Shown here: positions 1-61,728 of the stretch, one piece after another
How positions within the stretch are numbered: position 1 is the stretch's first letter
Layout: each line of letters opens with the position of its first letter
NCBI GenBank assembly: GCA_965230975.1
Contig: OZ246402.1
Coordinates: forward strand, 1,056,859 to 1,120,858
Direction of reading: 5' to 3'
Source of the DNA: an uncultured Candidatus Saccharibacteria bacterium
GTDB lineage: Bacteria; Patescibacteriota; Dojkabacteria; J137
Length of the DNA stretch: 64,000 nt
Notes under the pieces: generated by a model
Told to the model about the DNA's origin: nothing
Databases searched by the model: none
The model's input: only the letters and a program-made list of their open reading frames with translations
Made by a program: the position numbers and the translations under genes

Positions 1-66
1 TTGTTTTGGTAGCAGGGTATTTAGTTATAATTACATCAGTAGGGCTATATATTTTATATAGAATAT

Positions 67-1107: not shown

Positions 1108-1163
1108 GGCTTAAAACCTGTTGTGCCCATTATCTTATAGTTTGGTATGATATAATATAGGGT

Positions 1164-1484
1164 ATGAGCATACCAATAGTAACAACAAATAACCCTAGAC
1201 CTACTGTAGAACATACAATACCAACTAATCCTACAGATTGCTTAAATGCTTTTAATAGAATGGGTGATATTATTATTCAAGTTTTTCCAACTTTCAATAG
1301 AGATGCAAATAATAAATTGTTATCTGTAGGGCTAACAATACAAAATTCTAATAATCAAATATTAAATACCTTGGTTGTAGACTCGTCTTCTCAAAGGACA
1401 ATAAACTACCAGTTTCAAACCTTTGCATTAACTGTAAATTTAGAGTTAGGATCTGTAAGTATAACTAACATAACAGAAAATTAA
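1164..1484 (+). CDS. hypothetical small protein (Thr/Asn/Pro-rich)
   Basis: 106-aa ORF with no recognisable motifs; low-complexity N-terminus. Confidence 0.25.
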   Translation: MSIPIVTTNNPRPTVEHTIPTNPTDCLNAFNRMGDIIIQVFPTFNRDANNKLLSVGLTIQNSNNQILNTLVVDSSSQRTINYQFQTFALTVNLELGSVSITNITEN

Positions 1485-1547
1485 AATCCCCACGTAACAT
1501 TTATAATCTTTTTATTGTATAATATTAACCTATTACAATAGATACCA

Positions 1548-2639
1548 ATGAATGGAAACAAACAAATTTTAGGAGATGTTACTAGTGAATTAAGTCTTAT
1601 TCTACAAACACATGCCAATCTATTCTCCAGTTTAAAACTAACAGAAGATATTGCAATTTCCATTGTTAATATGATTGGTGAATATCAAGTTAGCCTATTG
1701 GGTTATATTCAAAATAATGCACCTGCTAATATTCAACCACAACTAGAAACATTCTTAAATACTCAGGTGAATATATTATTACAAAAATATAGGGGTGAAA
1801 AATACAGCGATAATCCTTCAGTGCAAACAGATCTACTTATTGAACAAGGGAAACCATTTTTAAATGAATTAGACTACGTAACACTTATACTAGTTGCTCT
1901 TTATATTCAAAATTTATGTACCAAGTCAACATTAACAGGCGAAATCAGCATAAGTTCTATTACCTTAGATTTTATTAACTCGGATAGCGAACATGCCTTA
2001 CAAGATAACTCAGACTTACCTGCACTAATCAACCAAATAGTTTCAAAAAATCTAAATTTACAAAATATTAAATTAAAGTTAGAAATTGCACTTACTATTT
2101 TTAAACGAGAAATTGATTCACAACAGTTAGAATTATTACAAAAGGCCGGTGGAGAAGCAATGAATCTTGGCATTTCAAACGCAAGAGAATTTATAAAAAT
2201 AAATGGGCTAGAAGATGTACTAATCAAGTTATCTGAAGAGATTATAATATCCCTTTTAAATTTAGTTAATGAGCTTTGTGCTGAAATGCTAAATACAAAT
2301 AAACTTAATCTGAACCAATTCTCTAGTGGTGACATTGATTATGACACTTTTAGACAAAATATATATGGTTTTGCAGATTTAATTAAGCAAAGATTTAAGG
2401 CTAGAGTAAGTGAATTAATTTCAATAGAAAACTCACTTTCACAAACTATGCTAGAAGATAAAAACTTGGAAAGGCTTAGTGAGTTCTTTTATCAATTTTT
2501 TGAGATGAAGGTATTTAAACCAGTCTCGGATTTAGCAACAAATGAAACCACTACACAAGTCAATGACTTATATGGAAAGCTTATTCATATGCATATTGCA
2601 ATCTTAGTCTTGGTTCACTGGAATTCGAATCTAAGCTAA
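1548..2639 (+). CDS. hypothetical protein (predicted alpha-helical)
   Basis: 363-aa ORF with coding-like composition; no recognisable catalytic motif. Confidence 0.4.
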   Translation: MNGNKQILGDVTSELSLILQTHANLFSSLKLTEDIAISIVNMIGEYQVSLLGYIQNNAPANIQPQLETFLNTQVNILLQKYRGEKYSDNPSVQTDLLIEQGKPFLNELDYVTLILVALYIQNLCTKSTLTGEISISSITLDFINSDSEHALQDNSDLPALINQIVSKNLNLQNIKLKLEIALTIFKREIDSQQLELLQKAGGEAMNLGISNAREFIKINGLEDVLIKLSEEIIISLLNLVNELCAEMLNTNKLNLNQFSSGDIDYDTFRQNIYGFADLIKQRFKARVSELISIENSLSQTMLEDKNLERLSEFFYQFFEMKVFKPVSDLATNETTTQVNDLYGKLIHMHIAILVLVHWNSNLS

Positions 2640-2705
2640 TTCTATTTCAGGTTTGTTGCGTGCAGGCATTATATTTATTAATATTAATGTGTTGATTTAT
2701 TCTTT

Positions 2706-2963
2706 ATGCAAACCGAATTTGTTCAAAAAATTTCAGTCAATACTTTTAGTGATTATTTAAAAAGATTCACCAATGAGCTTGGCGATCCCACTTATTTTGT
2801 AAAACAAAATCTAGATAAAGAGTATTTTTGGGAAACTGAAAACTTTAAGTTTAGCTTAATTGAATCAGCCGATACAAAAACCTATTATTATCACATTGAG
2901 TCTTTTTGTGATAAATCACCTTTAGAGTTTCAACACGAGTTAAGAGTTAAACCTGATTTTTGA
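2706..2963 (+). CDS. hypothetical small protein
   Basis: 85-aa ORF starting with ATG at 2706; no motifs. Confidence 0.3.
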   Translation: MQTEFVQKISVNTFSDYLKRFTNELGDPTYFVKQNLDKEYFWETENFKFSLIESADTKTYYYHIESFCDKSPLEFQHELRVKPDF

Positions 2964-2966
2964 TAT

Positions 2967-4352
2967 TTACTTAAAATGAGTCCAATCTGTCCAAGCCATA
3001 TTTTTACCGCCTGATGCTGCAGCTACTGGATAATTTGTTCCGATTGCTTTATTAACTACCCACGGAATCCAAGAGTCGTCTCCTTCGGGTGCATAGTTGA
3101 TTTGGTATAATATGTCCATTGTTCTTTTAAGAGCATTATCCCCCGAGTTAATTGAAAGTTTTCCAGCTCTAGATAGCATTATGCTAGCAACAACATACCC
3201 TTGCATGCCTTCCCACATATAACCAGATTTTGTTGGTGGCCATGCAAATTCAGCGCCTCTTCGCCAATCTTCTGGCAAAACTCCAGATACATCAACCCCA
3301 TTTATTTTGCTTCCAACTTTATTAATTCCATATCTGTTAGTAGAATCTGCGTGCCAATTAGTGCTTTGACAGTAAAGATTGTTAGTTACAGTTTCTCCAA
3401 TGAATGCCCTGTGTGCATTTACAAGTCTTTGCAGTAATGCATCATCTTTTAAATATAAAGCAGCTGCAATAGCAGAGGCTCTTGCATGGCCACCCCAGTT
3501 ATTTGGGGCTCTTAATGCGGTACAGACTAATCCACCTAAACTGTTGCATGATTCTGCAACTCCTGACGAGTTACACAAATCTGAGCCTCCTGTATGTGGA
3601 GATACATCTGCATTTAGCATATTTCTGACCCAAGTTTCAAACTCTGGTGTTCTATATCCTATAATATCTGCCGAGATTATGTATGTTTGCAGTCCTCTAG
3701 ATAATTCTAATGACCTAGCTAAGGGAGAGTTCATTGCAGATTGTAAACCCTGTATAGTTTTATTTCGCATGTTAGTATCATCTAGTCTTACTGCAACTAA
3801 TGCTCCTGCAAGTGTTTTAATATCGTGTGATGAGTTGTTATCACTTAAATTTGCACTTCCCCAACTACTGTTAGCAGTGCTTACTATATTATTCCATGCG
3901 GAGTAACATAAGCTACCACTTGTACACCCGGTGTTACCAGCTATAGGCAATGCTTTAATCTCTTGTGGGGAAAGCCATATTCCAGTTGTTGGTGTTACTG
4001 GTGGGGGTGTAGTTACGCAGTAGTCAGTTTTTTTGTATACTTTTGCAAACTCTTGAAAGTCTGCAACATCTAAATAGCAATCATCTTTAATTATATCTAA
4101 GCTACAGTTTATGTTTGATTTTTTATAGTTTTGACCCAATGTTCCAAAATCTTGTATGTCTACCAATTGGTTATTATTAAAATCTCCTTTACAAATTGCT
4201 CCATTTGCTTTGACATGTGAGATATTTGGGTTTAAAGCGGGTGCAAGTATTATAGTAGAGCTTGCAATTAAAAAGATAGATGTAAATATTAAGGATCTTG
4301 TTGCATTTTTGTATTTGTTTATCATTTTTGTATGGTAAATATTAATTAGCAT
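2967..4352 (-). CDS. secreted protein, possibly a polysaccharide lyase-like (alpha/alpha toroid) enzyme with dockerin-like Asp/Asn repeats
   Basis: N-terminal signal peptide (KYKNATRSLIFTSIFLIASSTIILAPALN). Two D-x-N/D-rich segments (KGDFNNNQLVDIQDFG and DIIKDDCYLDVADFQEF). C-terminal region (NNWGGHARASAIAAALYL, WHADSTNRYG) is reminiscent of alginate-lyase/heparinase-like folds; the assignment is weak. Confidence 0.3.
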   Translation of the reverse strand: MLINIYHTKMINKYKNATRSLIFTSIFLIASSTIILAPALNPNISHVKANGAICKGDFNNNQLVDIQDFGTLGQNYKKSNINCSLDIIKDDCYLDVADFQEFAKVYKKTDYCVTTPPPVTPTTGIWLSPQEIKALPIAGNTGCTSGSLCYSAWNNIVSTANSSWGSANLSDNNSSHDIKTLAGALVAVRLDDTNMRNKTIQGLQSAMNSPLARSLELSRGLQTYIISADIIGYRTPEFETWVRNMLNADVSPHTGGSDLCNSSGVAESCNSLGGLVCTALRAPNNWGGHARASAIAAALYLKDDALLQRLVNAHRAFIGETVTNNLYCQSTNWHADSTNRYGINKVGSKINGVDVSGVLPEDWRRGAEFAWPPTKSGYMWEGMQGYVVASIMLSRAGKLSINSGDNALKRTMDILYQINYAPEGDDSWIPWVVNKAIGTNYPVAAASGGKNMAWTDWTHFK

Positions 4353-4455
4353 ATCATATTTTATTATTTTAAATTGTAAATTTTTATTTTGCTTTCTCGT
4401 TGTGTAAATGGGAATTATCTAATATAATTAGCCTACGTTCTTCAATAATGTTTGT

Positions 4456-4531
4456 GCTAGGGTAGCTCAGCTGGTAGAGCAGGGGCCTGAAGAGCCCTGT
4501 GTCGGCGGTTCAAGTCCGTCCCCTGGCACCA
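4456..4531 (+). tRNA. tRNA-Phe (anticodon GAA), 3' CCA encoded
   Basis: Cloverleaf readable. Acceptor GCUAGGG/CCCUGGC with one G-U pair. D-arm GCUC-AGCUGGUA-GAGC. Anticodon stem GGGGC/GCCCU with loop CUGAAGA (anticodon GAA). T-arm GGCGG-UUCAAGU-CCGUC. Discriminator A followed by CCA. Confidence 0.85.
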
Positions 4532-4537
4532 TTTATT

Positions 4538-5308
4538 TCAAATCCTGACATTTCCTTCCTGTTTTACAATCTCCCAAATCTTTGCGAATTGTTTATCGAT
4601 TATTTTTGGATCTACATGACTTGCAGGGTGAAAGTTAGGAATAATATAAATATCTTTAACTTTAATATACCCCTCAGATGGAAGATTATTAATAACTTCG
4701 GTGATTGTCTTTCCATAATCTAGTCGAAAGTACTTAGCTAATGACTCCCAAGCCATTCCACCTAGTGGCATTATTAGCTTAGGGTCAACAATCTCTATCT
4801 GTTTGATAAGGTATGGATATGAATGACTTAAACTTACTTTAGGTTCAAAATTATCATTACCCCGAAATAAATGACCTTTCCGAGTTAATAAAACTGCAAC
4901 TGTAAAAAAGAAAAGGTCCCAATCTTTCTGAGTAATATCTTTATTAAATATTCGTAGATAGTTATTAGTGAGTGATCGAATTATGAACTTTTCTGTCCTA
5001 GAAGAGAATCCATTAAATAAAAACTTTTCATAGTCAAAGTCATCCTTAGTTTTTTCAATTTTATAATCATCTATAAAATTTTGTAAAGCGCTATAAGGTC
5101 CCCAATCTTGTCCAATAATCATAATAGGAGAATCAGCTCTTCTAACCCAATCAAACCATTTATTTGGTATTTGGTTGTGAAGTGCATAATGATTTACTAA
5201 ACCCACATCTAGCTCTATATCCTTACGTTTAACAATATATTTCTCAAGTTTGTTATCCCTACTTAAACTATCAATTAATTTTTGCATCAACTTTTCTTTA
5301 TTTTGCAT
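4538..5308 (-). CDS. uracil-DNA glycosylase superfamily protein
   Basis: IMIIGQDWGPYSA resembles UDG motif A (GQDPY-like). IIPNFHPASHVD resembles motif B (HPSP-like). 256 aa. Located 6 bp from the tRNA-Phe 3' end. Confidence 0.45.
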   Translation of the reverse strand: MQNKEKLMQKLIDSLSRDNKLEKYIVKRKDIELDVGLVNHYALHNQIPNKWFDWVRRADSPIMIIGQDWGPYSALQNFIDDYKIEKTKDDFDYEKFLFNGFSSRTEKFIIRSLTNNYLRIFNKDITQKDWDLFFFTVAVLLTRKGHLFRGNDNFEPKVSLSHSYPYLIKQIEIVDPKLIMPLGGMAWESLAKYFRLDYGKTITEVINNLPSEGYIKVKDIYIIPNFHPASHVDPKIIDKQFAKIWEIVKQEGNVRI

Positions 5309-5339
5309 AGGATTATTATCTCATGAATTTTACTCTGGA

Positions 5340-5444
5340 ACTCATCTAATTTTCTTATCAATATTACTTAGCAAGAAACTCAAATTAAACTCATTTTTAT
5401 CGGAAAATGTCGGTTTCGGGGTAAACGTACACCGCTCACCAAAT
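5340..5444 (+). repeat. cassette-associated direct repeat, copy 1
   Basis: ...catctaattttcttatcaatatt...caaattaaactcatttttatcggaaaatgtcggtttcggggtaaacgtacaccgctcaccaaat. Core GTTT-N6-AAAC-GTACACCGCTCACCAAAT is shared with the other copies. Confidence 0.8.
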
Positions 5445-5483
5445 AAACCTCATATAATCTTTTCAAAAATGGTATAATTACAT

Positions 5484-5672
5484 ATGCACAATTGGAATAT
5501 AGACACCTCAAAATTTAAGGATAGAAAACAAAAGAAAATCTGGGAACTTGAGCAGAAGATTAATTATGGGTTAAAAGATACTAAACTCTCAAAAAGAGAT
5601 CTGAAAAAATACTTGCCTGAATTACGAATTGATAAAGACAAGAAGAAGTATATTGAATTTATTCTTCAATGA
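5484..5672 (+). CDS. small Lys-rich protein, putative partner (antitoxin-like) of the downstream AbiEii-type nucleotidyltransferase
   Basis: 62-aa ORF. Its stop overlaps the start of the next gene by 4 nt (ATGA), which suggests translational coupling. Confidence 0.35.
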   Translation: MHNWNIDTSKFKDRKQKKIWELEQKINYGLKDTKLSKRDLKKYLPELRIDKDKKKYIEFILQ

Positions 5673-6340
5673 AACCATTCCCAAATAAAGAACTACTAAC
5701 ACCTGAACAACTAAAATTTCTAGAGTTAGTAAACGAAAATACATCAATTAACAAATTATTTAAATTCTCAGGTGGAACAGCTCTAACAACATTTTATATT
5801 CCATACAGGTACTCAGACGATTTAGATTTTTTTTCAGAGCAGATCTTTGAACCTATTGGCATAACGAATTTTATTGCATCTCTAAAAAAGCAGCTAGGAT
5901 TTAATGAATATACATACACCGCATCGTTTAATAGAAATCTATACTTCTTAAGGTTTGACAATGGGTATGAACTCAAAATAGAATTTACTTACTATCCCTT
6001 TGCAACTATAAAACCTCCTTTGAAATTTGGGAACATTAATGTTGATTCTGAGTATGACCTTGCTGTAAACAAGCTTTTTACAATTTATCAAAATCCAAGT
6101 TTAAGACACTTTATGGATTTATATATGTTAATTAAAAAGTATGAATTCAGCTTTGAGGAAATTAAGAAAGATGCTCAAATAAAATTTGGAACATATATAG
6201 AGCATATTCAATTGGGTAGTCAACTTTTAAAGGTAGAATCACTTGAGGATTCTCCTAGACTCATTCAGCAATTAGATTCAAATTGGAAAAAATACTTTTT
6301 GAAAATGGCAAAAAATCTAAGTTCTACAGTCCTAGCTTAA
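5669..6340 (+). CDS. AbiEii/AbiGii-type nucleotidyltransferase toxin family protein (DUF1814-like)
   Basis: Motif FKFSGGTALTTFYIPYRYSDDLDFF matches the GGTAL...R(F/Y)SeDiDF signature of the AbiEii nucleotidyltransferase family. Confidence 0.55.
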   Translation: MKPFPNKELLTPEQLKFLELVNENTSINKLFKFSGGTALTTFYIPYRYSDDLDFFSEQIFEPIGITNFIASLKKQLGFNEYTYTASFNRNLYFLRFDNGYELKIEFTYYPFATIKPPLKFGNINVDSEYDLAVNKLFTIYQNPSLRHFMDLYMLIKKYEFSFEEIKKDAQIKFGTYIEHIQLGSQLLKVESLEDSPRLIQQLDSNWKKYFLKMAKNLSSTVLA

Positions 6341-6351
6341 GCAATTCTACT

Positions 6352-6433
6352 TACCTTCTTTTCAATATCAGGAATCACAAACACTAGATTATACTCTCTG
6401 GTTTTTGGGGTAAACACACCGCTCACCAAATTT
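6352..6433 (+). repeat. cassette-associated direct repeat, copy 2
   Basis: cttcttttcaatatcaggaatcacaaacactagattatactctctggtttttggggtaaacacaccgctcaccaaattt. Confidence 0.8.
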
Positions 6434-6488
6434 CCTCTTTGAAAGTTTATTTAGTAGAATTATATTATATTTGTTTAAGTAAATTTTT

Positions 6489-7433
6489 ATGGATAAATTC
6501 ACTAAATATAAATTTCTTATCACCGTCTATAACGTTAGTATTTTAATTAAAACTGATAGTGCAAACTTAGCTAATATATTAAAAGATGAATTATTATTGA
6601 GTCTTTTTTTACCTGACTTTTTTATTTCTTTACAAGAGGAAGAAAAGCTCACCTCTTTTGACTACTGTTTAACATGCATCCAATCTGATGAGAAGAAAGT
6701 ATTTTCTAACTTCAGGCGAGATGACTTTCTGCTACTTGATGATTGGATAAGTTTTAACAAATATAATTTTTTGGCATTTTTATTATCGTTATTTCAATCA
6801 AAGCTAATATTGAATTCTATTTACATATTGCACGCCGCTGCAGTGCAGTATAATGATATTGGTTTAATATTAATAGGAGATTCAGGTTCAGGTAAAACTA
6901 CCTCCATGCTCGAACTACTAAAGATAGACAAAGGTTTTAAAATAATTGGAAATAACCGAGTTGCAATTGAATCAAAAGAAACTTGTGTAATCAGAGGTGG
7001 CGCAACTGGTATATCGCTAAGAAAGAATATGGACATTAATGAATATATTGATATTCATGGTGGAAACCATATGGAAATCCATGGTGGGAGGAAGCTTTTT
7101 AGACCCGAATATAAATCTTCGGGTGAATTTAATAAAATCAGAAAAATTATTTTCATAGCACTAAGATTGAATCCTGGCGTCGAGGAATATTCGGATAATT
7201 TAGGCTTAGAAAACTCTCATTTACTACTATATCCTGAATTATTAGGAGTTAAAGATAGAGAAGTGGTTCTTTTCAACGGAACCCAAGCAATCCCTTTACT
7301 ATATAATGAGTATGAAGTTAAACAAAAGGTCATAGAAGATACTGCTAAAATAATCAATCAGTCAGAAATCATAAGAATTGCCGGTTCTTTAGAGTTTATA
7401 ACTAAAAAGATCCATGAATTAGTAAAAATTTAG
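6489..7433 (+). CDS. HPr kinase C-terminal-domain-like P-loop protein (HprK-like putative small-molecule or peptide kinase)
   Basis: ILHAAAVQYNDIGLILIGDSGSGKTTSMLELL resembles the HprK/P C-terminal P-loop region (H..AV...G.G.LI.G.SG.GKS). 314 aa. Confidence 0.4.
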   Translation: MDKFTKYKFLITVYNVSILIKTDSANLANILKDELLLSLFLPDFFISLQEEEKLTSFDYCLTCIQSDEKKVFSNFRRDDFLLLDDWISFNKYNFLAFLLSLFQSKLILNSIYILHAAAVQYNDIGLILIGDSGSGKTTSMLELLKIDKGFKIIGNNRVAIESKETCVIRGGATGISLRKNMDINEYIDIHGGNHMEIHGGRKLFRPEYKSSGEFNKIRKIIFIALRLNPGVEEYSDNLGLENSHLLLYPELLGVKDREVVLFNGTQAIPLLYNEYEVKQKVIEDTAKIINQSEIIRIAGSLEFITKKIHELVKI

Positions 7434-7479
7434 CAAGCAATAAATAAGAACTGATATCACACTCTTGATCTCTTATCAA

Positions 7480-7518
7480 TGTCTGTTTGGCTTACCAATA
7501 GACATCCCTCACAAAGTT
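7480..7518 (+). repeat. degenerate copy of the cassette-associated repeat
   Basis: tgtttggcttaccaatagacatccctcacaaagtt aligns to ggtttcggggtaaacgtacaccgctcaccaaat with about 12/17 identity in the core. Confidence 0.4.
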
Positions 7519-7562
7519 TTAAAACTCTTTCGTATTTCAGCTAATTCTTGTAAAATCCTTTT

Positions 7563-8324
7563 ATGGAAGAAAATGTAGTATTTAAAAATTCAAAAGGTGA
7601 TAATTTATCCGGAGTATTTCGTATTGTAAATAATGATATTAATACACATGTAGTGGTATTCGGACATGGATTTACCTCGAACAAAAATGGATCAGCAAAA
7701 GATCTTTCAATTAAGCTAGGTACTTTAGGCATAAACGCTTTCAGATTTGATTTTTATGGACATGGGGAAAGCGAAGGTAAATTTGAAAATATCACAGTAA
7801 GTGAAGGGGTAGACGATATGATACAAGCGATAAATTATGTTAAATCACGAGGATTCACGAAAGTTAGTTTGTTTGGTACTAGCTTTGGCGGACTTTGTTC
7901 AATAATCGCTGCATCTCGCGTCCAAAATCTTACCTTACTTGCTTTAAGAGCTCCAATGCCTGATTTCTATATTAGAGATTTAATGAAAAAATCAAAGCAA
8001 GACCTGGCTGATTGGAAAAGGAAAGGTTATAGAATATATAAACGTAGAGATGGTAGTGAACTTAATCTAAACTATTCTTTTTTTGAAGATTCTAAATCTA
8101 ATAGTGCTTTCATTGCAGGTGAAAAGATTGATATTCCTACATTTATAGTGGTAGGAGATCATGATGAATCCATACCCGTAATATTAAGTGAAATGCTGGC
8201 TAAATCTATTCCTAATTCAGAACTCAGGATCATAGAAGGTGGAGATCATTCATTCACGAATGAAAATCATGACAAAGAGGCAATAGATATTCTTTTCCAA
8301 TTTATACAAAATCATTTACACTAA
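7563..8324 (+). CDS. alpha/beta hydrolase fold protein
   Basis: HGFTSN oxyanion region, GTSFGG nucleophile elbow (GxSxG), and C-terminal GDHDE / GGDHSF acid/His region. 253 aa. Confidence 0.6.
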   Translation: MEENVVFKNSKGDNLSGVFRIVNNDINTHVVVFGHGFTSNKNGSAKDLSIKLGTLGINAFRFDFYGHGESEGKFENITVSEGVDDMIQAINYVKSRGFTKVSLFGTSFGGLCSIIAASRVQNLTLLALRAPMPDFYIRDLMKKSKQDLADWKRKGYRIYKRRDGSELNLNYSFFEDSKSNSAFIAGEKIDIPTFIVVGDHDESIPVILSEMLAKSIPNSELRIIEGGDHSFTNENHDKEAIDILFQFIQNHLH

Positions 8325-8382
8325 TTAGAGAGTTAGAGGATGAGACAGTACATATGGTCAAAGATACTAATTAAATGTGATT

Positions 8383-8470
8383 CTCTTAATCTCCTATTAA
8401 TATCATGAATAACAAACACTAAATTAAACTCTTTTGGTTTCCTTGCAAACGTACACCACTCACCAAATTT
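8383..8470 (+). repeat. cassette-associated direct repeat, copy 3
   Basis: ctcctattaatatcatgaataacaaacactaaattaaactcttttggtttccttgcaaacgtacaccactcaccaaattt. Confidence 0.8.
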
Positions 8471-8512
8471 CAATCTTGCAAAAAAGTCCATAGAATAATA
8501 GAATTAGTAATT

Positions 8513-9496
8513 ATGGACACAATTACTCCCTATGAATGGGGGCTTACAATTCCGAATATTCGATCTTTACAACCTGGATTACCTGAACAAACTTATGTGA
8601 TCTTAGAGAATTTAGATGCATATATAGAAAAGATAGTAACTTCTCTAAACAAGAAAGTTAAAAAGGCTACAAGATTAGGTGGATGGTCTTCGATAAATGT
8701 TAAATTAGATACAGAGGACAACCAAAGTTATGTAATCAAAATAGATCCATGGGTTGGAGTCTTAGTTACATCGGCAACGTTTTATACCTTAGTTAAAGAG
8801 CGATATCCTCAACAAAAAGTTCCTAGACTAGTTAAACTAGACGAATCAAAAGAAGTAATTCCTCATGAATTCTTAGTTTTAGAATATATTGAACACGACA
8901 GCACATCTACCTTCTCTACAGAAGATAAATATGGCGCTGGAAGATTGTTTGGAGATTTTTTAAAAGATATACACAAAATAAGGGTAGAGGGGTATGGCTC
9001 TCCACAAAGTACAGTGCGATGGAAGTTTAAGACATGGGCAGAGGCTCTGCGAAACTTTCTTAACTCTAGATACTTTTCCAAGGCATCAGAAATCTTTGAT
9101 CAAGAAACTATTGACTTCATCATGCAATTACCTACCAGAGCAGAGCCCTCAGAATCAATGCTATTACACGCCGATGTAAGTATTGAAAATTGCTTATTTA
9201 AGCGGGAGAATGACCAACTCCAGATTGCTGCAATAATTGACCCTGATACAACAGGAGGAGATCCTTATTGGGATTTGGCTATAGGAATCGGAAAGAACGA
9301 TGACTTTTCCAGAGGGATTGTTGAAAGTTATTTAGGAGTAGATGCTGAAAAAGAACTTAATTCAAGAAGATTCCTTATTCTTAGTCTGATATATCTCTTT
9401 TGGATTATAGGCTGGAGACAAACAATGGGATTGGATATAAGTGAATATAAAACAGAGTTCGAAGAACAACTAGCTAAATTAAAAGCCATTATTTAA
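8513..9496 (+). CDS. aminoglycoside/choline-kinase-like phosphotransferase (protein-kinase-like fold)
   Basis: LLHADVSIENCLF is a catalytic-loop HxD...N pattern. IIDPDTTGGDPYWDLA matches the APH-family D.D...GDP..DLA pattern. Confidence 0.5.
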   Translation: MDTITPYEWGLTIPNIRSLQPGLPEQTYVILENLDAYIEKIVTSLNKKVKKATRLGGWSSINVKLDTEDNQSYVIKIDPWVGVLVTSATFYTLVKERYPQQKVPRLVKLDESKEVIPHEFLVLEYIEHDSTSTFSTEDKYGAGRLFGDFLKDIHKIRVEGYGSPQSTVRWKFKTWAEALRNFLNSRYFSKASEIFDQETIDFIMQLPTRAEPSESMLLHADVSIENCLFKRENDQLQIAAIIDPDTTGGDPYWDLAIGIGKNDDFSRGIVESYLGVDAEKELNSRRFLILSLIYLFWIIGWRQTMGLDISEYKTEFEEQLAKLKAII

Positions 9497-9509
9497 CTCT
9501 TCTAATCTC

Positions 9510-9597
9510 ACGATCTACATCAACTAGAAGAAAGCTTAGATTAACATTCGAACTAGAGTGTAGGGGTTTCGTGGCAAACGAACACCGCTCACCATTT
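9510..9597 (+). repeat. cassette-associated direct repeat, copy 4
   Basis: cgatctacatcaactagaagaaagcttagattaacattcgaactagagtgtaggggtttcgtggcaaacgaacaccgctcaccattt. Confidence 0.75.
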
Positions 9598-9655
9598 AAA
9601 ACTGCTTTCATTTCCTTTGCTAATAATATAAAATTGGATATTTAAATCTCTTGCT

Positions 9656-11323
9656 ATGATTAGCTACTTAGAGCTTTGGGACAAATTACTATACTTCCTA
9701 GACAAAGATAAAAACAAATTCTTATTTTGGAACATTCCTTATATATTAAGTAATATATTTTCACTAATTCAACCTGTATTAATAGGTGCAATTATAAACT
9801 TCTTTGCTAATTACACTTCTGACAAACCCTTAGATGAGTTCTACTTATATTTAGGAATTTACCTATTAGGATCAGTACTGGCTCAGGTTCTAAGAATAAG
9901 TGCTCGAGGTAAGATGTTTGAGATCAAGGCTGATCTTGAATATAACATTAAAACCAAAGCATTTAATAATATTCAAAACAACGCAATTGACTGGAATCTA
10001 CAAGAGAATTCTGGAAATAAATTACAAAGAATTAATACAGGTACGTCATCTTTAATTGAAGTAGTAAGTCTATTAAGCAATGATATATTTTATATAGTAA
10101 TTAGTTTTATTGGAATTCTTTCATTCTTTACAATAACTAATTTTTCATTTTTAATATTTTTCCTACTATATGCCATTTTATATTTCATCTTATTAAAGTA
10201 TTGGAATAGAAAAAACCCCGAAATGTTAAAGAGATTAAATACAGCTAGAGAGCGTTCTTCAGGGAAAATGTTTGAGGGATTAAGTAATATTCTAACAATT
10301 AAAAGTTTAGGTGTAATAAATAGTTTTCAAAACTCAATTAACAATGCCCAAAATGAACAAAGAGAAGCTGTTAAGGCTTGGGAAAGGTTAGGAGTTTATA
10401 AATGGATTTCTCTTTCAACTTTTGATTTCTTATTCATTGCTGGGTTTTTTATCTTAATTGCAATTGGAATTACTTCTGCACAAATAAGTGCTGGTCTTGT
10501 TTATGTTTTGTATAGTTACTTTATGAATATGCAAGAGATTGCATCTAATTCAAATGGTGTACTTACACAATTAATAGAAATTAAGTCTAATGTTTCTAGA
10601 ATGCTTCCTATTTTTGATCAGGTAAACTATCAAGCTGGTAACAAAAGATTTCCAAAGAATTGGGATTCTCTCCTAATAAAAAATGGTAGCTTTGAATATT
10701 CAGCTGGTGATAATAAGTTAGTATTTAACAATATAAACTTTGAAGTAGTAAGAAATAGTTTTGTAGGTATTGTTGGTGAATCTGGGTCTGGCAAATCAAG
10801 CTTGTTAAAAGTATTAATAGGTTTATATAGAATCAAACAAGGGACTTATCGAATAGGTAACAGAAGCTTTTATGATATATCCCGAGAAGAGGTATTAAAC
10901 CAGATTACTGTTGTGCTACAAGATACAGAATTATTTAATGTAAGTCTTTTAGAGAATATAACTCTATTTAAAGAAGTCGATCTGGACAAATTAAAGTTAG
11001 CCTTAGAAGTTGCACACTTAGAAGATGTTATTAATGAGTTACCAGAAGGATTGAATACTTTAGTTGGAGAAAAAGGTGTCAAACTTTCTGGCGGCCAAAG
11101 ACAAAGGATAGGCATAGCAAGGGCAATTTATAAAGATTCTCAAATTATTTTGATGGATGAAGCAACTTCCAACCTTGATAATGAAACTGAGCAGTTAGTT
11201 ATGAATAATATACTGACTAAATTACAAAATAAAACTTTGATAGTAGTTGCCCATAGGTTATCTACTTTAGAAAAAGCAGATAAAATCTGTAGATTTAAAG
11301 ACGGTACTATTTTCCAAGAGTAG
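9656..11323 (+). CDS. ABC exporter, fused permease/ATPase (bacteriocin/multidrug-type)
   Basis: N-terminal half has multiple TM helices. C-terminal ATPase has Walker A GESGSGKSS, signature LSGGQRQRIGIARA, Walker B ILMDEATS, and H-loop AHRLS. Confidence 0.8.
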   Translation: MISYLELWDKLLYFLDKDKNKFLFWNIPYILSNIFSLIQPVLIGAIINFFANYTSDKPLDEFYLYLGIYLLGSVLAQVLRISARGKMFEIKADLEYNIKTKAFNNIQNNAIDWNLQENSGNKLQRINTGTSSLIEVVSLLSNDIFYIVISFIGILSFFTITNFSFLIFFLLYAILYFILLKYWNRKNPEMLKRLNTARERSSGKMFEGLSNILTIKSLGVINSFQNSINNAQNEQREAVKAWERLGVYKWISLSTFDFLFIAGFFILIAIGITSAQISAGLVYVLYSYFMNMQEIASNSNGVLTQLIEIKSNVSRMLPIFDQVNYQAGNKRFPKNWDSLLIKNGSFEYSAGDNKLVFNNINFEVVRNSFVGIVGESGSGKSSLLKVLIGLYRIKQGTYRIGNRSFYDISREEVLNQITVVLQDTELFNVSLLENITLFKEVDLDKLKLALEVAHLEDVINELPEGLNTLVGEKGVKLSGGQRQRIGIARAIYKDSQIILMDEATSNLDNETEQLVMNNILTKLQNKTLIVVAHRLSTLEKADKICRFKDGTIFQE

Positions 11324-11344
11324 AACTAAAATATTCTTACGATT

Positions 11345-11431
11345 TCTTCATCTAAATCAACTATCATGAAACTCAAGTTAAACTCATTCCCAGAGTAAGA
11401 TGGTTTCGGTGTAAACGCACACCGCTCACCA
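11345..11431 (+). repeat. cassette-associated direct repeat, copy 5
   Basis: tcttcatctaaatcaactatcatgaaactcaagttaaactcattcccagagtaagatggtttcggtgtaaacgcacaccgctcacca. Confidence 0.8.
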
Positions 11432-11501
11432 TACTATTACCTGATTATTGATAAATGATCTCACTTAAGTTATTGTAGTTAATATATATTAATAATCATC
11501 A

Positions 11502-12110
11502 ATGGACTCTGGGCAAAGCAGATATACAAGAGTAAGAAGAGATATTTCAGGAATGAGAGATACAATTCACACCGAAGCAGAGCAAATACCAGTAGAAAGA
11601 ACTGATATGATGTCCGTAGAAGATGCTTCACAGTTAGATGAGAAAAATCTAATATTTTCTACATCTATTTCTTCTAATCATCAAGGTCCAATAATCCAAC
11701 TTGAAATGAGAACAGATACACCTGGTAATGAAGACTTTAGTTTAGGACGAACATTATTTGCACAAGATCATAAAAAGATACCTAAGTATCTATTCGTCAA
11801 TACTGGTTATTTTACTACAGCTCCAACGGGTGCAGGTCTTGGTACAAAGATGTTTAATAAACTATCTAGAGTTTTTCAATATTTAGCCCGAGTAAAGCAG
11901 TCCCAAGTTGTTCATGCTATTCATCCGACTAATGAAAATAACAAAAGATTATATGAGAGATTAGGCTATCAACCTGATAATACTAAGCTTTACGATGATT
12001 CAGGCGAATTTCTTATAAAAACTTTCCAGCCCGAAACAGATACAAATAGCATATATTTGTATGGTGATGAAGTTAAACTACTTGCCCAACTTAGTATGTT
12101 TTATAGTTAA
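11502..12110 (+). CDS. GNAT-family N-acetyltransferase-like protein
   Basis: APTGAGLGTKMF is a Q/R-x-x-G-x-G/A acetyl-CoA motif. NKRLYERLGYQP is a GNAT motif B-like segment. Confidence 0.4.
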   Translation: MDSGQSRYTRVRRDISGMRDTIHTEAEQIPVERTDMMSVEDASQLDEKNLIFSTSISSNHQGPIIQLEMRTDTPGNEDFSLGRTLFAQDHKKIPKYLFVNTGYFTTAPTGAGLGTKMFNKLSRVFQYLARVKQSQVVHAIHPTNENNKRLYERLGYQPDNTKLYDDSGEFLIKTFQPETDTNSIYLYGDEVKLLAQLSMFYS

Positions 12111-12204
12111 TATAACCATTTATGCAAAATATTTCCCAACTTCTATAAAATTGGAACATATCTAACAACTCAGAATGCGAATCTTAAGTTTTGAAGTGTT
12201 ATTC

Positions 12205-12266
12205 AGAATAATAAACAAAAACCTAGTTAAAGCGTAGTTCGTGGTAGTTGTACACCGCTAACCAAT
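12205..12266 (+). repeat. cassette-associated direct repeat, divergent copy 6
   Basis: aataataaacaaaaacctagttaaagcgtagttcgtggtagttgtacaccgctaaccaatt. Confidence 0.55.
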
Positions 12267-12281
12267 TATTCCTATTTAGCG

Positions 12282-12719
12282 TTAATCTTGCAAAGAATAA
12301 ATTATATACCAAGGCTTTTCAGGCAATTCCTTTCTAATTCCTGCGTATACATTATGGATACTAGGCAAGTTCATCCACGGATCAACCCAACCAGTTTCTA
12401 CCTTTAAAAGATAATGCCCTATTGGATACTTTTTGCTTTTTCTAATTAAGGTAATTGAATTTAGTTTTGAAGCTAAACTTACTGATTCAGGAGTAACATC
12501 TCTTTTTGTATTGCAAAATTTTACTGCATAATTAAGTCCTTTAGAATTGAGATATTTTACAAGATCTGAGACTTTAATACCTTTATCCACCTTATAAAAG
12601 TTATTCTCAAAATCTGACTTTATTTCTAAATACTCTTTGTTGAGAAGATTAGCAAGACATGCAATACCACAACCATTTAAGTCATGTTGATGTTGGTATT
12701 CTTTAGAAATATTTTCCAT
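12282..12719 (-). CDS. stand-alone peptidase C39-like (papain-fold, bacteriocin-processing type) domain protein
   Basis: HDLNGCGIACLANLLNKEY matches the C39 catalytic-Cys motif (CG.ACL). Downstream His candidates (PIGHYLL). 145 aa. The only minus-strand gene in the repeat array. Confidence 0.4.
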   Translation of the reverse strand: MENISKEYQHQHDLNGCGIACLANLLNKEYLEIKSDFENNFYKVDKGIKVSDLVKYLNSKGLNYAVKFCNTKRDVTPESVSLASKLNSITLIRKSKKYPIGHYLLKVETGWVDPWMNLPSIHNVYAGIRKELPEKPWYIIYSLQD

Positions 12720-12754
12720 ATAGTAATTATAGCTTACTTATTGATATTCGATGA

Positions 12755-12834
12755 ATCTTCTTAACAATATCTGTAATAACAAACACTAAGTTAAACTCTT
12801 TGGGTTTTGGGGTAAACGGACATCGCTCACCAAA
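12755..12834 (+). repeat. cassette-associated direct repeat, copy 7
   Basis: cttcttaacaatatctgtaataacaaacactaagttaaactctttgggttttggggtaaacggacatcgctcaccaaagc. Confidence 0.8.
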
Positions 12835-12919
12835 GCATAAAACTTAAGAAGGTTTAAATACTAAAAGAATTAGCCTTTAAACGTGCCTTCAAATAAACCT
12901 TATTGTATAATTCCTAATC

Positions 12920-14122
12920 ATGACTGATTCTCAAAAACTGCTTTCTAGAAAATATTTAATATATAAACTATTCACAAACCTATGGTTTGTTAGTGCTGTA
13001 TGGCTATATTTTTATAGAATCTTTATTACAGATCAACAAGTAGGAATATTAGATGGAATAGCTTTTGCAATTGGACTGATTGCAGAAGTGCCCTCAGGTG
13101 CATTAGCAGACAAGTTTGGTAGAGATAAGCTTGTTAAAATCGGGCATATTCTTGCTGGATGTGGTTTATTGCTTCAAGCATTCAGCACAAGCTTGCCATT
13201 TTTTATTATTGGTCAAGCAACAATGATGATAGGGGTTTCTTTTGTTTCTGGTGCAGACGAGGCATTATTTTACGAAAATTTAAAATTTAACGAAAACTCA
13301 AAACAGTGGAGAAAACTAGTGACCAGAGGGTCTCAAGTTGGATTAATTGCAACATTATTTGCAACAATAGCAGGGGGTTGGCTTCATAATATAGACCCAA
13401 AAATCCCATGGGTCTTAAATGGCCTAACTTTTATTATTGCAGTAATAATGATTTGGAATATAAAAGATAAAAGAGAGCGGAAATCTAGGGGCAGTGTAGT
13501 TTCAGAAGTTAAAGATTATTTATTAGACATAAAAACTGGATTTGCACAATTTAAGTTACCTAAACTAAGATTGTATGTACCTTTTATTATTACAGTACAA
13601 GGTCTATTTTATACAACAGGATATGGATTACTAAGACTTGTATTACTTGATAGGTTTGGATTTAGTATATTTTTAGGATCTATTGCACTTGCATCTAGCA
13701 CAATTATCACTGTTGCCTTACTTTCCTACCTCCACAAATATTCTGATAAATTTAGTGAAAAAAGAGTTTTAACCTCAATTGGATTAGCAGCTGCTGCAAG
13801 CTTACTTTTATCATTAGCAAATATTGGGTTATGGGGATATATTGTCATATTAATCCTGTATGCTGGCGAACATGTTCTTCAACCCATAATCAGTGAAGTT
13901 TTAAATAAGAAAGCACCAGAAGATCAAAGAGCAACTACACTTTCAGTTGCATCGTTTTTTAAAACCTTGCCTTATGTAATTTTGGCCCCAATTATTGGCA
14001 CATTAAATAACGAAGGTAAGCTAGAATATTTTTTAATTATATGGGCTATCTTTATCTTTCTTGCTGTAGGGCTTTATGTAATTGTCAAAATGAAAGATTC
14101 TAAGATAAATATTAGCGAATAA
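12920..14122 (+). CDS. MFS-type transporter
   Basis: 400 aa with about 12 hydrophobic segments. The D-K/R-x-G-R-like loop (LADKFGRDK) between TM2 and TM3 is typical of the major facilitator superfamily. Confidence 0.6.
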   Translation: MTDSQKLLSRKYLIYKLFTNLWFVSAVWLYFYRIFITDQQVGILDGIAFAIGLIAEVPSGALADKFGRDKLVKIGHILAGCGLLLQAFSTSLPFFIIGQATMMIGVSFVSGADEALFYENLKFNENSKQWRKLVTRGSQVGLIATLFATIAGGWLHNIDPKIPWVLNGLTFIIAVIMIWNIKDKRERKSRGSVVSEVKDYLLDIKTGFAQFKLPKLRLYVPFIITVQGLFYTTGYGLLRLVLLDRFGFSIFLGSIALASSTIITVALLSYLHKYSDKFSEKRVLTSIGLAAAASLLLSLANIGLWGYIVILILYAGEHVLQPIISEVLNKKAPEDQRATTLSVASFFKTLPYVILAPIIGTLNNEGKLEYFLIIWAIFIFLAVGLYVIVKMKDSKINISE

Positions 14123-55981: not shown

Positions 55982-56680
55982 CTATAAAATCTTACTTTCA
56001 ATATACTTTAATACAACATCATTAATTTTTGAATCTACTGGAACTTGCAAATATTGCTCTTTTAAGAGCTGTTCATTTGCAATATTAAATTGATATTTAT
56101 CTATTCTTAATCTTAAAGTAGTGATTTGAACATTATTTACAGCAGCTCCAGTTAACTCCATTTCTCGTACAATTACAAAGTCATCTATAGAACTCAAATC
56201 TGATATAAAGCTTAGTGTATTTTGATAATTGCCGTTAATTTCAAAAAAGAATGGGATTTCTAGTAAACTTAAACCCATATAATTTATATTTTGAGCGTTG
56301 GTATTTATATCTGACTCACTTAATCTTTGAGTTACTATTGTTAAAGAGTTGGATTTAATTAAATTAGTAATTTTGTCTCTAAAGGCAACCACCTGGGAAC
56401 TTTCGGTTGGAGCAGTTTGGTCTATAATTCTTAGTTGTGCAAGTGAAAGATTGCTATTTTGGCTTAATAAATCTAGTGATTTCAGTTGTTCATTTTTCGA
56501 ATCTGCAGTTTTAGAAAGAATAGATATCTCATCTAAGCTTTTAAATATTTCATTGACTTTTGGAACAACCAAAAACAAAACAATCCCTAAAAATCCAAGT
56601 ACAGATAATAAAGGTACTATATAAAACTTTAACACCCTTTTATAAGCTAACTTTTGTTCTAGTTTTAAAGTTCGATCCAC
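55982..56680 (-). CDS. pilO: type IV pilus assembly protein PilO-like
   Basis: N-terminal TM (FYIVPLLSVLGFLGIVLFLVV) followed by a coiled-coil and a periplasmic domain. Position is after pilM and pilN. Confidence 0.5.
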   Translation of the reverse strand: MDRTLKLEQKLAYKRVLKFYIVPLLSVLGFLGIVLFLVVPKVNEIFKSLDEISILSKTADSKNEQLKSLDLLSQNSNLSLAQLRIIDQTAPTESSQVVAFRDKITNLIKSNSLTIVTQRLSESDINTNAQNINYMGLSLLEIPFFFEINGNYQNTLSFISDLSSIDDFVIVREMELTGAAVNNVQITTLRLRIDKYQFNIANEQLLKEQYLQVPVDSKINDVVLKYIESKIL

Positions 56681-56681
56681 T

Positions 56682-58285: not shown

Positions 58286-58371
58286 TTTTTTATTCTAATA
58301 AATATGTCCTACTCAATTTATACATAAACATAATAATGTAGTTTCAATGCGAATTCAATTAAACTTATGAG

Positions 58372-60852: not shown

Positions 60853-60919
60853 TATTTTTATTTAATCTTTTAACAGTATATTTATTATCGCAAAGCACTT
60901 CAATACTTTATGGATTTAT

Positions 60920-61713: not shown

Positions 61714-61728
61714 TTTTAAAAATCGATC

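What the first reader, a model, noticed from the sequence alone, without database searches (positions are those of the whole stretch)
5340..12840. Integron-like array of repeat-delimited accessory gene cassettes next to tRNA-Phe
Seven clear copies and two degenerate copies of a 60-100 nt direct repeat occur in one orientation. The core is GTTT-N6-AAAC-GTACACCGCTCACCAAAT, with a conserved left arm (caatatc.g.ataacaaacactaaattaaactc or catctaaatcaacta...ttaaactc). Copies lie at about 5340, 6352, 7480, 8383, 9510, 11345, 12205 and 12755. Each copy sits 40-80 bp upstream of a different, functionally unrelated accessory gene. The genes are an AbiEii toxin pair, an HprK-like P-loop protein, a hydrolase, an APH-like kinase, an ABC exporter, a GNAT acetyltransferase, a C39-like peptidase (inverted) and an MFS transporter. 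I saw the repeat nowhere else in the 64 kb. Co-oriented single-gene cassettes separated by a family of imperfect repeats is the architecture of integron cassette arrays. The gene content (TA, acetyltransferase, transporters, kinases) is typical of such arrays. However, no canonical attC cores (RYYYAAC / GTTRRRY) are evident and no tyrosine recombinase lies nearby. Each repeat is followed by a TATAAT-like box about 25 bp downstream, so a shared operator or promoter module (a regulon of acquired genes) is the main alternative. Either way this is a structured, probably mobile, accessory locus that is likely undescribed for this lineage.
Basis: partly seen in the sequence, partly recalled or inferred. 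Interest (0 to 1): 0.85.

Follow-up and report, generated by a model that had tools for sequence, protein, structure and literature searches.

The report
Mini-gene repeats bounding swappable gene modules
Next to a tRNA gene in an uncultured Dojkabacteria (candidate phyla radiation) genome, eight unrelated accessory genes are each separated by a copy of a roughly 100-base repeat that is really a fragment of a tiny protein-coding gene on the opposite strand, and a sister strain has swapped a block of these genes with one breakpoint inside a repeat, so this looks like a gene-shuffling locus that is not an integron.

Summary
The repeat is real. The 13-mer core occurs seven times, on one strand only, between 5.3 and 12.9 kb (0.18 expected). 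A profile finds six strong copies, one weak copy and no others; an eighth, decayed copy at 7462-7516 was identified by eye only. The genome is a Candidatus Dojkabacteria (CPR) genome.

It is not an integron. No attC-like hairpin, covariation or Rfam match was found. No recombinase was found among about 47 ORFs scanned. Most modules carry their own -10 box just before the ATG, outside the repeat.

Three new findings:
- The repeat carries a significant protein-coding signature on the minus strand (FGERCxFTPKP...NEFNLxFxIxDIDKKIR). It has no stops, in-frame indels and excess synonymous change (P<2e-4). It is known only as 43-54 aa ORFs of this lineage, and most window copies lack a start codon.
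- A sister strain replaces window 4532-9494 (five modules) with one Fic-like gene. The breakpoints lie exactly after the tRNA-Phe CCA and at the left-arm/core joint of one repeat.
- Core halves are homogenised within the genome, whereas left arms are old and diverse.

Best reading: the repeat is the recombination joint of a strain-variable module array. The enzyme and mechanism are unresolved.

The parts
4456..4531 (+). tRNA-Phe (GAA). It is the fixed outer boundary of the array; strain variants diverge at the base immediately after its CCA.
   Evidence: ARAGORN and Rfam. L008 is 100% identical to the window up to 4531 and unrelated after it. L009 also ends on this tRNA end.
4538..5308 (-). 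UDG-superfamily gene, the tRNA-proximal module. A Fic-like gene (L008) or a 194-aa gene (L009) takes its place in other strains.
   Evidence: Pfam UDG E 3e-7.
5340..5446 (-). Element E copy 1. The minus-strand peptide GLFGERCTFTPKPTFSDKNEFNLSFLLSNIDKKIR runs 5449-5345. There is no start codon; a TGA stop lies directly upstream.
5484..6340 (+). Module 1: a 62-aa ORF (5484-5672) plus an AbiEii nucleotidyltransferase (5669-6340).
   Evidence: Pfam AbiEii E 1e-12. TATAAT lies 5 nt before the ATG.
6344..6433 (-). Element E copy 2. It is frameshifted by a 2-nt deletion in the core.
6489..7433 (+). Module 2: an HprK-like P-loop protein. It is an orphan: the only database hit is its own 98% identical copy.
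7462..7516 (-). Element E copy 3, degenerate. It keeps the start of the left arm and a roughly 60% core; the middle is deleted.
   Evidence: Alignment and reading. It is below the nhmmer threshold.
7563..8324 (+). Module 3: an alpha/beta hydrolase.
8333..8491 (-). Element E copy 4 (element 8382-8471), contained in an intact 52-aa ORF with an ATG (MDFFARLKFGEWCTF...).
   Evidence: (P0122)
8513..9496 (+). Module 4: an APH-family kinase.
9489..9611 (-). Element E copy 5 (element 9496-9599), contained in an intact 40-aa ORF (MKAVLNGERCSF...). The strain breakpoint lies at 9564/9565, the left-arm/core joint.
9656..11323 (+). Module 5: an ABC exporter. Its best NCBIfam match is the NHLP-type bacteriocin exporter subunit, below the cut-off.
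11333..11436 (-). Element E copy 6. There is no start codon; TAA and TAG stops lie directly upstream.
11502..12110 (+). Module 6: a weak GNAT-like protein.
12200..12266 (-). Element E copy 7, degenerate. The core matches 12 of 13 bases (1 mismatch) and the left arm is decayed.
12282..12719 (-). Module 7: a weak C39-like peptidase. It is the only internal module on the minus strand and starts 7 nt after the stop codon of the frame running through E copy 8.
12746..12837 (-). Element E copy 8. There is no start codon; a TAA stop lies directly upstream.
12920..14122 (+). Module 8: an MFS transporter, the last gene preceded by an E copy.

Best explanation
The locus is a strain-variable accessory island anchored at the 3' end of tRNA-Phe in a Dojkabacteria genome. 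It consists of eight self-promoted, mostly single-gene modules. Consecutive modules are joined through one copy of a 90-110 bp bipartite element, E.

E is not a promoter, a structured RNA or an attC site. It is a segment of 32-37 codons from a tiny lineage-specific gene that reads on the opposite strand. It has two halves:
- A 'core' half (GGTTT-N6-AAAC-NN-ACACCGCTCACCA, encoding FGERCxFTPKP). This half is kept nearly uniform within the genome and stays with the module on its right.
- A 'left-arm' half (encoding NEFNLxFxIxDIDKKIR). This half is old and diverse and travels with the module on its left.

Shown: modules are exchanged in register at the joint between the halves and at the tRNA end.

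Inferred: E works as the recombination joint that lets modules be added, lost or replaced while keeping one orientation. The most likely agent is a trans-acting recombinase encoded outside this window that recognises the DNA-constrained core. Short-homology, in-register recombination between E copies is the fallback.
For: - E is confined to the array, with one copy per spacer, all in one orientation. Eight of eight co-oriented is about 1 in 128 by chance.
- L008 comes from the same species (98.7-100% identical flanks). It replaces window 4532-9494 by a 210-aa Fic-like gene. There are 19 mismatches in 9497-9564 and none from 9565 to 10409, so the breakpoint sits at the left-arm/core joint. The other breakpoint lies directly after the tRNA CCA. 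The hybrid mini-ORF stays in frame (P0123).
- L009 has a third gene between the tRNA-Phe end and an E copy.
- Core and left arm have discordant histories. Cores are 73-93% identical within the window but 60-73% identical to L007/L009. Left arms are 47-76% identical within the window and up to 75% identical to L007. The Spearman correlation between the two identity matrices is -0.12.
- The core carries DNA-level constraint beyond coding: pS is 0.31 in the core against 0.69 in the left arm.
- The coding signature is significant: no stops, a synonymous fraction of 0.31 against 0.147 in the null (P<2e-4), and linker lengths of 0, 12 or 15 nt.
- Promoter-like signals lie outside E.
- Relatives lack the array upstream of MutL.
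Against: - Only one strain polymorphism was found. Allelic replacement through long flanking homology could have moved it, so the joint could be an old scar.
- No recombinase was found among about 47 of roughly 60 window ORFs. Many ORFs have no hit at all, and the rest of the 1.19 Mb genome could not be searched.
- The GTTT/AAAC mini-palindrome is not conserved in L007/L009 (alignment).
- No excised circle or empty site was seen.
- Why a recombination joint should keep an amino-acid-level signature is unexplained.
- Exact identity blocks between resident copies are only 7-16 nt, which is poor substrate for RecA.
Confidence: 0.42

Rival explanations
1. E is simply a family of small genes (orfE, about 40-54 aa). 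It could be a small regulator or an antitoxin-like partner that accompanies accessory genes. Modules accumulated at a tRNA hot spot and most orfE copies have since decayed. E would then play no direct part in recombination.
For: The amino-acid-level selection is significant. Intact ATG-started ORFs exist in the window (8333-8491 and 9489-9611) and in L007, L008 and L009. In five places the ORF lies 7-33 nt upstream of, or overlaps, a co-directional gene: UDG-like, C39-like, two Fic-like genes and a 194-aa gene.
Against: Three well-preserved window copies have a stop codon directly upstream and no start codon; one is frameshifted and two are decayed. The conserved block has neither a conserved start nor a conserved stop. 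Strict co-orientation and the one-per-spacer pattern are not expected from passive accumulation. The core is more uniform than coding requires. There is no Pfam or PDB sequence match, and the structure model is poor.
Confidence: 0.2
2. The core of E is a shared operator or upstream regulatory site that places all modules under one regulator. This would be a regulon of acquired genes, or a propagated 'mobile promoter'.
For: On the core side, every window copy with a plus-strand gene to its right (7 of 8; the exception is copy 7 at 12200-12266, followed by the minus-strand C39-like gene) and the E copies of L008 and L009 have that gene starting 43-88 nt away. The core shows DNA-level conservation beyond coding. 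In two copies a TTGAAA or TTGCAA hexamer starts exactly 11 nt after CACCA.
Against: The distance from core to ATG or -10 box varies (43, 48, 61, 62, 71 and 88 nt). Promoter-like pairs are not enriched (41 found against 53 expected) and lie outside the conserved block. Six of nine array genes have their own -10 box 5-8 nt before the ATG. In L007 the core overlaps the 3' end of a glycosyltransferase gene and no gene starts there. The 3-periodic substitution pattern of the left arm is not that of an operator.
Confidence: 0.13
3. The array is a tandem accretion of small integrase-less integrative elements (CIME-like) at the tRNA-Phe attachment site, with each E an attR-type scar.
For: The array abuts the tRNA 3' end and the variants differ from the first base after CCA. 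All E copies have the same orientation as the tRNA. The core ends in CACCA like the tRNA. CACCAAATTTCA is shared by the tRNA junctions of L008/L009 and by E copies at 6424 and 8461.
Against: There is no copy of the tRNA-Phe 3' part anywhere in the array. The 12-mer similarity is not significant (3 found against 0.67 expected; 3% of shuffles reach 3). The observed internal breakpoint lies 30 nt to the left of CACCA. No integrase was found.
Confidence: 0.1
4. The locus is a true integron cassette array without a nearby integrase (CALIN).
For: The cassettes are co-oriented with one repeat each, and the array contains a toxin-antitoxin-like pair.
Against: There is no attC-like imperfect palindrome. 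Single-strand folds differ between copies, with z-scores from +0.2 to -3.7. There is no covariation. RYYYAAC/GTTRRRY boxes are absent from the ends. Cassettes have their own promoters. The repeats are conserved in sequence and coding.
Confidence: 0.03

Closest known systems
Chromosomal integron cassette arrays and CALIN (PMC4889954; bioRxiv 10.1101/2022.02.28.482270)
   Same: Both have co-oriented, mostly single-gene accessory modules with one repeat per module. Repeats are homogeneous within a species. Module content varies between strains with a breakpoint inside a repeat.
   Different: Here there is no intI, no attC secondary structure and no R/L boxes. The repeat is conserved in sequence and reads as a protein segment. 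Modules carry their own promoters. The array is anchored on a tRNA end rather than on attI.
pdif (Xer) modules of Acinetobacter plasmids (PMC6449649, PMC13141974)
   Same: Both have discrete accessory modules, including toxin-antitoxin pairs, bounded by short sites. In pdif modules a recombinase encoded elsewhere is thought to act on those sites, so no local recombinase gene is needed.
   Different: pdif sites are 28-bp XerC/XerD sites in alternating orientation on plasmids. E is about 100 bp, lies in direct orientation on the chromosome and has no recognisable dif-like half-sites.
tRNA-linked genomic islands built by tandem accretion of integrative or cis-mobilisable elements (own knowledge)
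   Same: Both are located at a tRNA 3' end, have serial modules separated by direct repeats, and vary between strains at the tRNA-proximal end.
   Different: The repeats here are not copies of the tRNA 3' part. No integrase was found, and modules are only 0.6-1.8 kb.
Putative mobile promoters (PMC3488235)
   Same: In both, a homologous intergenic sequence lies upstream of non-homologous genes.
   Different: The conserved block here excludes the -35/-10 signals. It shows codon-periodic substitutions on the opposite strand.
Orphan modules of polymorphic toxin loci and silent cassettes of antigenic-variation loci; Rickettsia palindromic elements (own knowledge)
   Same: All involve a repeated, start-less coding segment under amino-acid-level conservation that serves, or could serve, as in-register recombination homology. 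Rickettsia palindromic elements are short repeats with coding capacity.
   Different: No full-length master gene containing the segment exists in the window or among 1.84 billion representative proteins. No variable domain is fused downstream. E is not palindromic and has not been shown to be dispersed.

Membership tests
Integron / CALIN | attC sites: imperfect palindromes that fold as single strands, with R''/L''-L'/R' boxes (RYYYAAC...GTTRRRY) | tested here: not met
   Alifold on both strands gives -2 and -8 kcal/mol with 0 compensatory pairs. Individual ssDNA folds differ between copies and none pairs the two ends. Rfam finds nothing at E<=1. IntegronFinder itself was not available.
Integron / CALIN | intI tyrosine recombinase next to the array (required for a complete integron, not for CALIN) | tested here: not met
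   No Phage_integrase or other recombinase family was found among about 47 ORFs of the 64 kb. About 15 short ORFs and the rest of the genome were not scanned.
Integron / CALIN | Promoterless cassettes expressed from a common Pc | tested here: not met
   A -10-like hexamer lies 5-8 nt before the ATG in 6 of 9 array genes. -35/-10 pairs lie after the core in three modules. This rests on sequence prediction only.
Integron / CALIN | Cassette presence/absence variation with breakpoints in the repeats | tested here: met
   In L008 against the window, the breakpoint lies at 9564/9565 inside E copy 5. This is a single case.
tRNA-targeting integrative element array | Direct repeats that are copies of the tRNA 3' segment | tested here: not met
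   The 23-nt tRNA-Phe 3' end (up to 3 mismatches) occurs only in the tRNA itself. Only CACCA(AATTTCA) is shared, and that is not significant.
tRNA-targeting integrative element array | Integration boundary at the tRNA 3' end | tested here: met
   Window, L008 and L009 diverge 0-1 nt after the CCA.
Shared promoter / operator (regulon, mobile promoter) | The conserved block contains, or is phased with, the promoter of each gene | tested here: not met
   The spacing is variable (43-88 nt to the ATG). Promoter-like sites lie outside the block and are not enriched. L007 is a counter-example.
Structured cis-regulatory RNA / small RNA | Conserved secondary structure with covariation, or an Rfam match | tested here: not met
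Protein-coding small ORF family | Open frame, codon-periodic substitutions, in-frame indels | tested here: met
   There are 0 stops in 8 x 28 codons (P=6e-4). The synonymous fraction is 0.31 against 0.147 in the null (P<2e-4). pN/pS is 0.39 in the left arm. Indels are 12 or 15 nt.
Protein-coding small ORF family | Every copy has a start codon and is translatable | tested here: not met
   Only 2 of 8 window copies have an ATG. Three have a stop directly upstream of the conserved block.
Dispersed intergenic repeat (REP/MITE/RPE type) | Copies scattered over many unrelated loci of the genome | tested here: inconclusive
   There are none outside the array in 64 kb plus about 7 kb. The other roughly 1.1 Mb of the genome could not be read. 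The window-type core pattern is absent from the GTDB representative genomes and IMG/VR, and the only JGI metagenome match is a chance one.

The most novel reading that the evidence does not exclude
A previously unknown gene-capture system of CPR bacteria. Its recombination site would be embedded in a translated mini-gene. The tRNA-Phe 3' end would serve as the primary docking site. An unidentified trans-acting recombinase would insert, excise and reshuffle self-promoted single-gene modules. This would be a functional analogue of the integron built from unrelated parts.
Probability: 0.15. Interest if true: 0.85.

Novelty: new variant of a known kind. Interest (0 to 1): 0.62.

Why it matters
CPR/Patescibacteria have tiny genomes, and little is known about how they acquire and shuffle accessory genes. 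This locus is a compact, repeat-delimited module array with direct evidence of module replacement between strains. It fails every defining test of the integron and of tRNA-scar islands. Its boundary element carries an amino-acid-level signature, which is unusual for a recombination or regulatory site.

If the element proves to be an active recombination site, it would define a new cassette system. It would also provide a sequence handle (profile plus peptide motif) for finding such arrays in other uncultured lineages. If it proves to be a decayed small-gene family, it is still a clear example of how a hot spot at a tRNA is organised in a streamlined genome.

Tried and rejected
- tRNA-derived repeat: the core ends in CACCA but has no T-arm. 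It gets no tRNA CM hit and does not resemble the tRNA-Phe 3' end. A resemblance to a tRNA-Val 3' end in relative L005 covers only about 10 nt.
- Fragment of a larger gene (displaced target-gene end): no full-length paralogue exists in the window. A profile search of 1.84 billion proteins returned only 43-54 aa ORFs.
- Ribbon-helix-helix (Arc/Mnt-like 'FNL' strand) reading of the peptide: I found no support in Pfam, in PDB sequence search or in the AF2 model (pLDDT 61).
- RiPP precursor or one biosynthetic cluster: the peptides lie on the opposite strand, mostly lack starts and have tails of 0-17 aa.
- Public-collection pattern scans: the window-type core gave 0 hits in GTDB genomes and 0 in IMG/VR. 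The single JGI metagenome hit (L003) was a chance match in coding DNA. A codon-degenerate pattern gave one chance hit in IMG/VR (L016, 42% GC, coding).
- The MutL-anchored scan of GTDB genomes found no relative.
- Further exact-protein look-ups (GNAT, MFS, 461-aa, 135-aa, UDG) found only the two known arrangements.

Full report
**The observation**

The 13-mer ACACCGCTCACCA (up to 2 mismatches) occurs seven times in the 64 kb. All seven are on the + strand, between 5429 and 12832. Shuffles give 0.18. The longer form GTTT-N6-AAAC-NN-ACANCNCTNACCA occurs five times against 0.10 expected.

A nucleotide profile of the whole element finds the following:
- Six strong copies: 5340-5446, 6344-6433, 8382-8471, 9496-9599, 11333-11436 and 12746-12837.
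- One weak copy at 12238-12270.
- Nothing else in the window or in about 7 kb further left (L010).

The copy near 7480 is decayed. It keeps the start of the left arm and a roughly 60% core. One copy fills every intergenic spacer between the UDG-like gene (4538-5308, minus strand) and the MFS gene (12920-14122). tRNA-Phe lies at 4456-4531.

HprK-like, GNAT and C39 are weak hits below the Pfam cut-offs.

**The organism**

MutL homologues place the window in Candidatus Dojkabacteria (Patescibacteria/CPR). The window's own contig is 1.19 Mb. The next MutL relatives are 66% and about 50% identical. Synteny downstream of MutL is conserved in a relative (L005). The DNA upstream of MutL is unrelated in L004 and L005, so the array sits in a variable region.

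**What the repeat is not**

It is not a structured nucleic acid:
- Consensus folding of either strand gives -2 and -8 kcal/mol with no compensatory pair.
- Single-strand DNA folds differ from copy to copy, with z-scores from +0.2 to -3.7. None pairs the two ends as an attC site would.
- Rfam gives nothing at gathering score or at E<=1.

It is not the promoter:
- Sigma-70-like pairs are not enriched (41 found against 53 expected).
- Where they occur upstream of module genes they lie after the core, in non-conserved DNA: 6439-6468, 8476-8504 and 11448-11476.
- Shine-Dalgarno motifs are almost absent in this genome (2 of 62 genes).
- Six of the nine array genes have a -10-like hexamer 5-8 nt before the ATG. 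This suggests leaderless transcripts from module-specific promoters.
- The distance from core to ATG varies between 43 and 88 nt.

It is not a tRNA scar. No partial copy of the tRNA-Phe 3' end exists in the array.

No recombinase family was found among about 47 window ORFs scanned with Pfam, NCBIfam or PHROGs. Many ORFs have no hit at all, and the rest of the genome is out of reach.

**What the repeat is**

Read on the minus strand, the copies translate to one peptide: xFGERCxFTPKP, then 0-5 residues, then NEFNL[SV]F[VLM][IL]xD[ILV]D[KR][KRE]IxR. The evidence that this is a coding signature is as follows:
- Indels between copies are 12 or 15 nt. The single exception is a 2-nt deletion that frameshifts the copy at 6344-6433.
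- In the left-arm half only this frame is free of stops. It has the highest mean BLOSUM62 score (2.51 against -0.12 to 1.06 for the other frames).
- I used eight copies: five from the window and three from related contigs. The left arm has pN/pS 0.39, and five different Leu codons occur at one invariant Leu.
- A column-permutation test keeps column variability and relatedness. It gives a synonymous fraction of 0.31 against a null mean of 0.147 (0 of 5000 permutations reach it). It gives P=6e-4 for the absence of stops.

A profile search of 1.84 billion representative proteins finds the segment only in four clusters of 43-54 aa ORFs. One of these is the window's own ORF at 8333-8491. No long protein matches.

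In the window only two copies have an ATG (8333-8491, 52 aa; 9489-9611, 40 aa). Three well-preserved copies have a stop codon directly upstream of the conserved block and no start codon. The block therefore has neither a conserved start nor a conserved stop.

No Pfam family or solved structure matches the peptide. An AlphaFold model is poor (pLDDT 61, one helix). My impression of an Arc/Mnt-like 'FNL' strand is not supported by any test.

**Strain comparison**

The small ORFs led to three related contigs.

L008 (Logan SRR8831206, 4958 bp) is from the same species:
- Positions 1-3365 equal window 12860-9495 (98.7% identical).
- Positions 4036-4958 equal window 4531-3609 (100% identical).
- Between them lies a 210-aa Fic-like gene. 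The Pfam Fic hit has E 1e-4, and the motif HFFEDSNGRIAR is present. This gene replaces window 4532-9494.
- The replaced segment holds the UDG-like gene and the AbiE, HprK-like, hydrolase and APH modules.
- Mismatches are 19 in 9497-9564 and none from 9565 to 10409.
- So one breakpoint is the base after the tRNA CCA. The other is the joint between left arm and core of the element at 9496-9599.
- The hybrid mini-ORF remains in frame (P0123).

L009 is a more distant relative. It has the order tRNA-Phe end, a 194-aa gene, E, then a divergent gene.

L007 has the order glycosyltransferase, E, then a Fic-like gene, all co-directional. An E copy therefore does not need a gene starting on its core side.

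All other contigs found repeat the window arrangement at 100% identity.

A cluster of 12 SNPs lies in 12336-12544, between otherwise identical flanks. It suggests that recombination with diverged DNA occurs at this locus.

**Two halves with different histories**

- Cores are 73-93% identical within the window but only 60-73% identical to L007/L009.
- Left arms are 47-76% identical within the window and up to 75% identical to L007.
- The two identity matrices are uncorrelated.
- Within the window, synonymous divergence is 0.31 in the core and 0.69 in the left arm. The core therefore carries a DNA-level constraint or is homogenised.
- Exact identity blocks between resident copies are only 7-16 nt.

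**Interpretation**

The shown facts fit an array of modules whose boundaries are E copies. Each core stays with the module to its right. Each left arm travels with the module to its left. The tRNA-Phe end is the fixed outer boundary.

I infer that E is the recombination joint of the array. The DNA-constrained core, strict co-orientation and the in-register breakpoint favour a trans-acting site-specific enzyme encoded elsewhere.

Several points keep short-homology recombination, or plain allelic replacement of an old scar, in play:
- No recombinase was found.
- The mini-palindrome is not conserved in relatives.
- There is only one polymorphism.

Why the joint keeps an amino-acid-level signature is unexplained.

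Rival readings:
- E is only a decayed small-gene family.
- The core is an operator.
- The E copies are attR-type scars of tRNA-targeting elements.
- The array is a true integron. This is essentially excluded.

**Comparison with known systems**

The locus works most like a chromosomal integron array or the pdif modules of Acinetobacter plasmids (PMC4889954, PMC6449649, PMC13141974). It meets none of their defining sequence features. It resembles 'mobile promoters' (PMC3488235) only superficially. A literature search found nothing linking Dojkabacteria with gene cassettes.

I rate it a new variant of a known kind (repeat-delimited cassette array), with about a 15% chance that it is a categorically new capture system.

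Noticed in passing
window, all 62 ORFs listed: Shine-Dalgarno-like motifs precede only 2 of 62 genes. Many genes have a TATAAT-like hexamer 0-9 nt before the ATG, so leaderless mRNAs may be the rule in this genome.
   Followed up: partly
window 12336-12544 vs L008: Twelve SNPs cluster in about 200 nt of the C39-like gene, between stretches with none (11229-12335 and 12545-12860). This looks like a short gene-conversion or import tract.
   Followed up: no
L005 7440-7721: In a relative, tRNA-Val(TAC) is preceded about 190 nt upstream by an inverted 19-nt copy of its own 3' end and by a degenerate copy of its 5' half. This may be a scar of integration at that tRNA.
   Followed up: no
window 6489-7433: The HprK-like P-loop protein has no homologue among 5.8 billion clustered proteins apart from a 98% identical copy of itself. 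It appears to be an orphan gene.
   Followed up: partly
L002 end (= window 12790) and L008 end (= window 12860); L011/L002 overlap at window 4502-4532: Independent short-read assemblies break at the tRNA-Phe 3' end and inside or just after the last E copy. The exact MFS protein was not found in those two samples. This may point to further junction variants, or only to low coverage.
   Followed up: partly
tRNA junctions of L008 and L009; window 6424-6435 and 8461-8472: CACCAAATTTCA follows the tRNA-Phe end in L008 and L009 and also ends two E cores. In L009 a 14-nt near-repeat (TTTGAAAT[T/C]TGGTG) brackets the E-plus-gene unit. The count of this motif in the window is not significant.
   Followed up: partly
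window 21531-23060 (and L005 17411-18949): A 509-aa ThrRS-like protein scores far below the thrS cut-off (197 against 384 bits). The matches are in two stretches: the N-terminal part of the thrS model (residues 12-195), a region that also hits alanyl-tRNA editing (AlaX-like) models, and the C-terminal anticodon-binding region (residues 405-501). A 512-aa counterpart in L005 carries the tRNA_SAD and HGTP_anticodon Pfam domains. This may be an unusual or truncated synthetase.
   Followed up: no
window 55982-63488: A type IV pilus / competence-like gene set is present (PilM, weak PilO, prepilin peptidase, PilC-like T2SSF). It could be relevant to DNA uptake in this lineage.
   Followed up: no
window 42977-44212: A 411-aa protein has a weak hit to a virion RNA polymerase domain (PF21867, E 2.5e-4, below the cut-off).
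   Followed up: no
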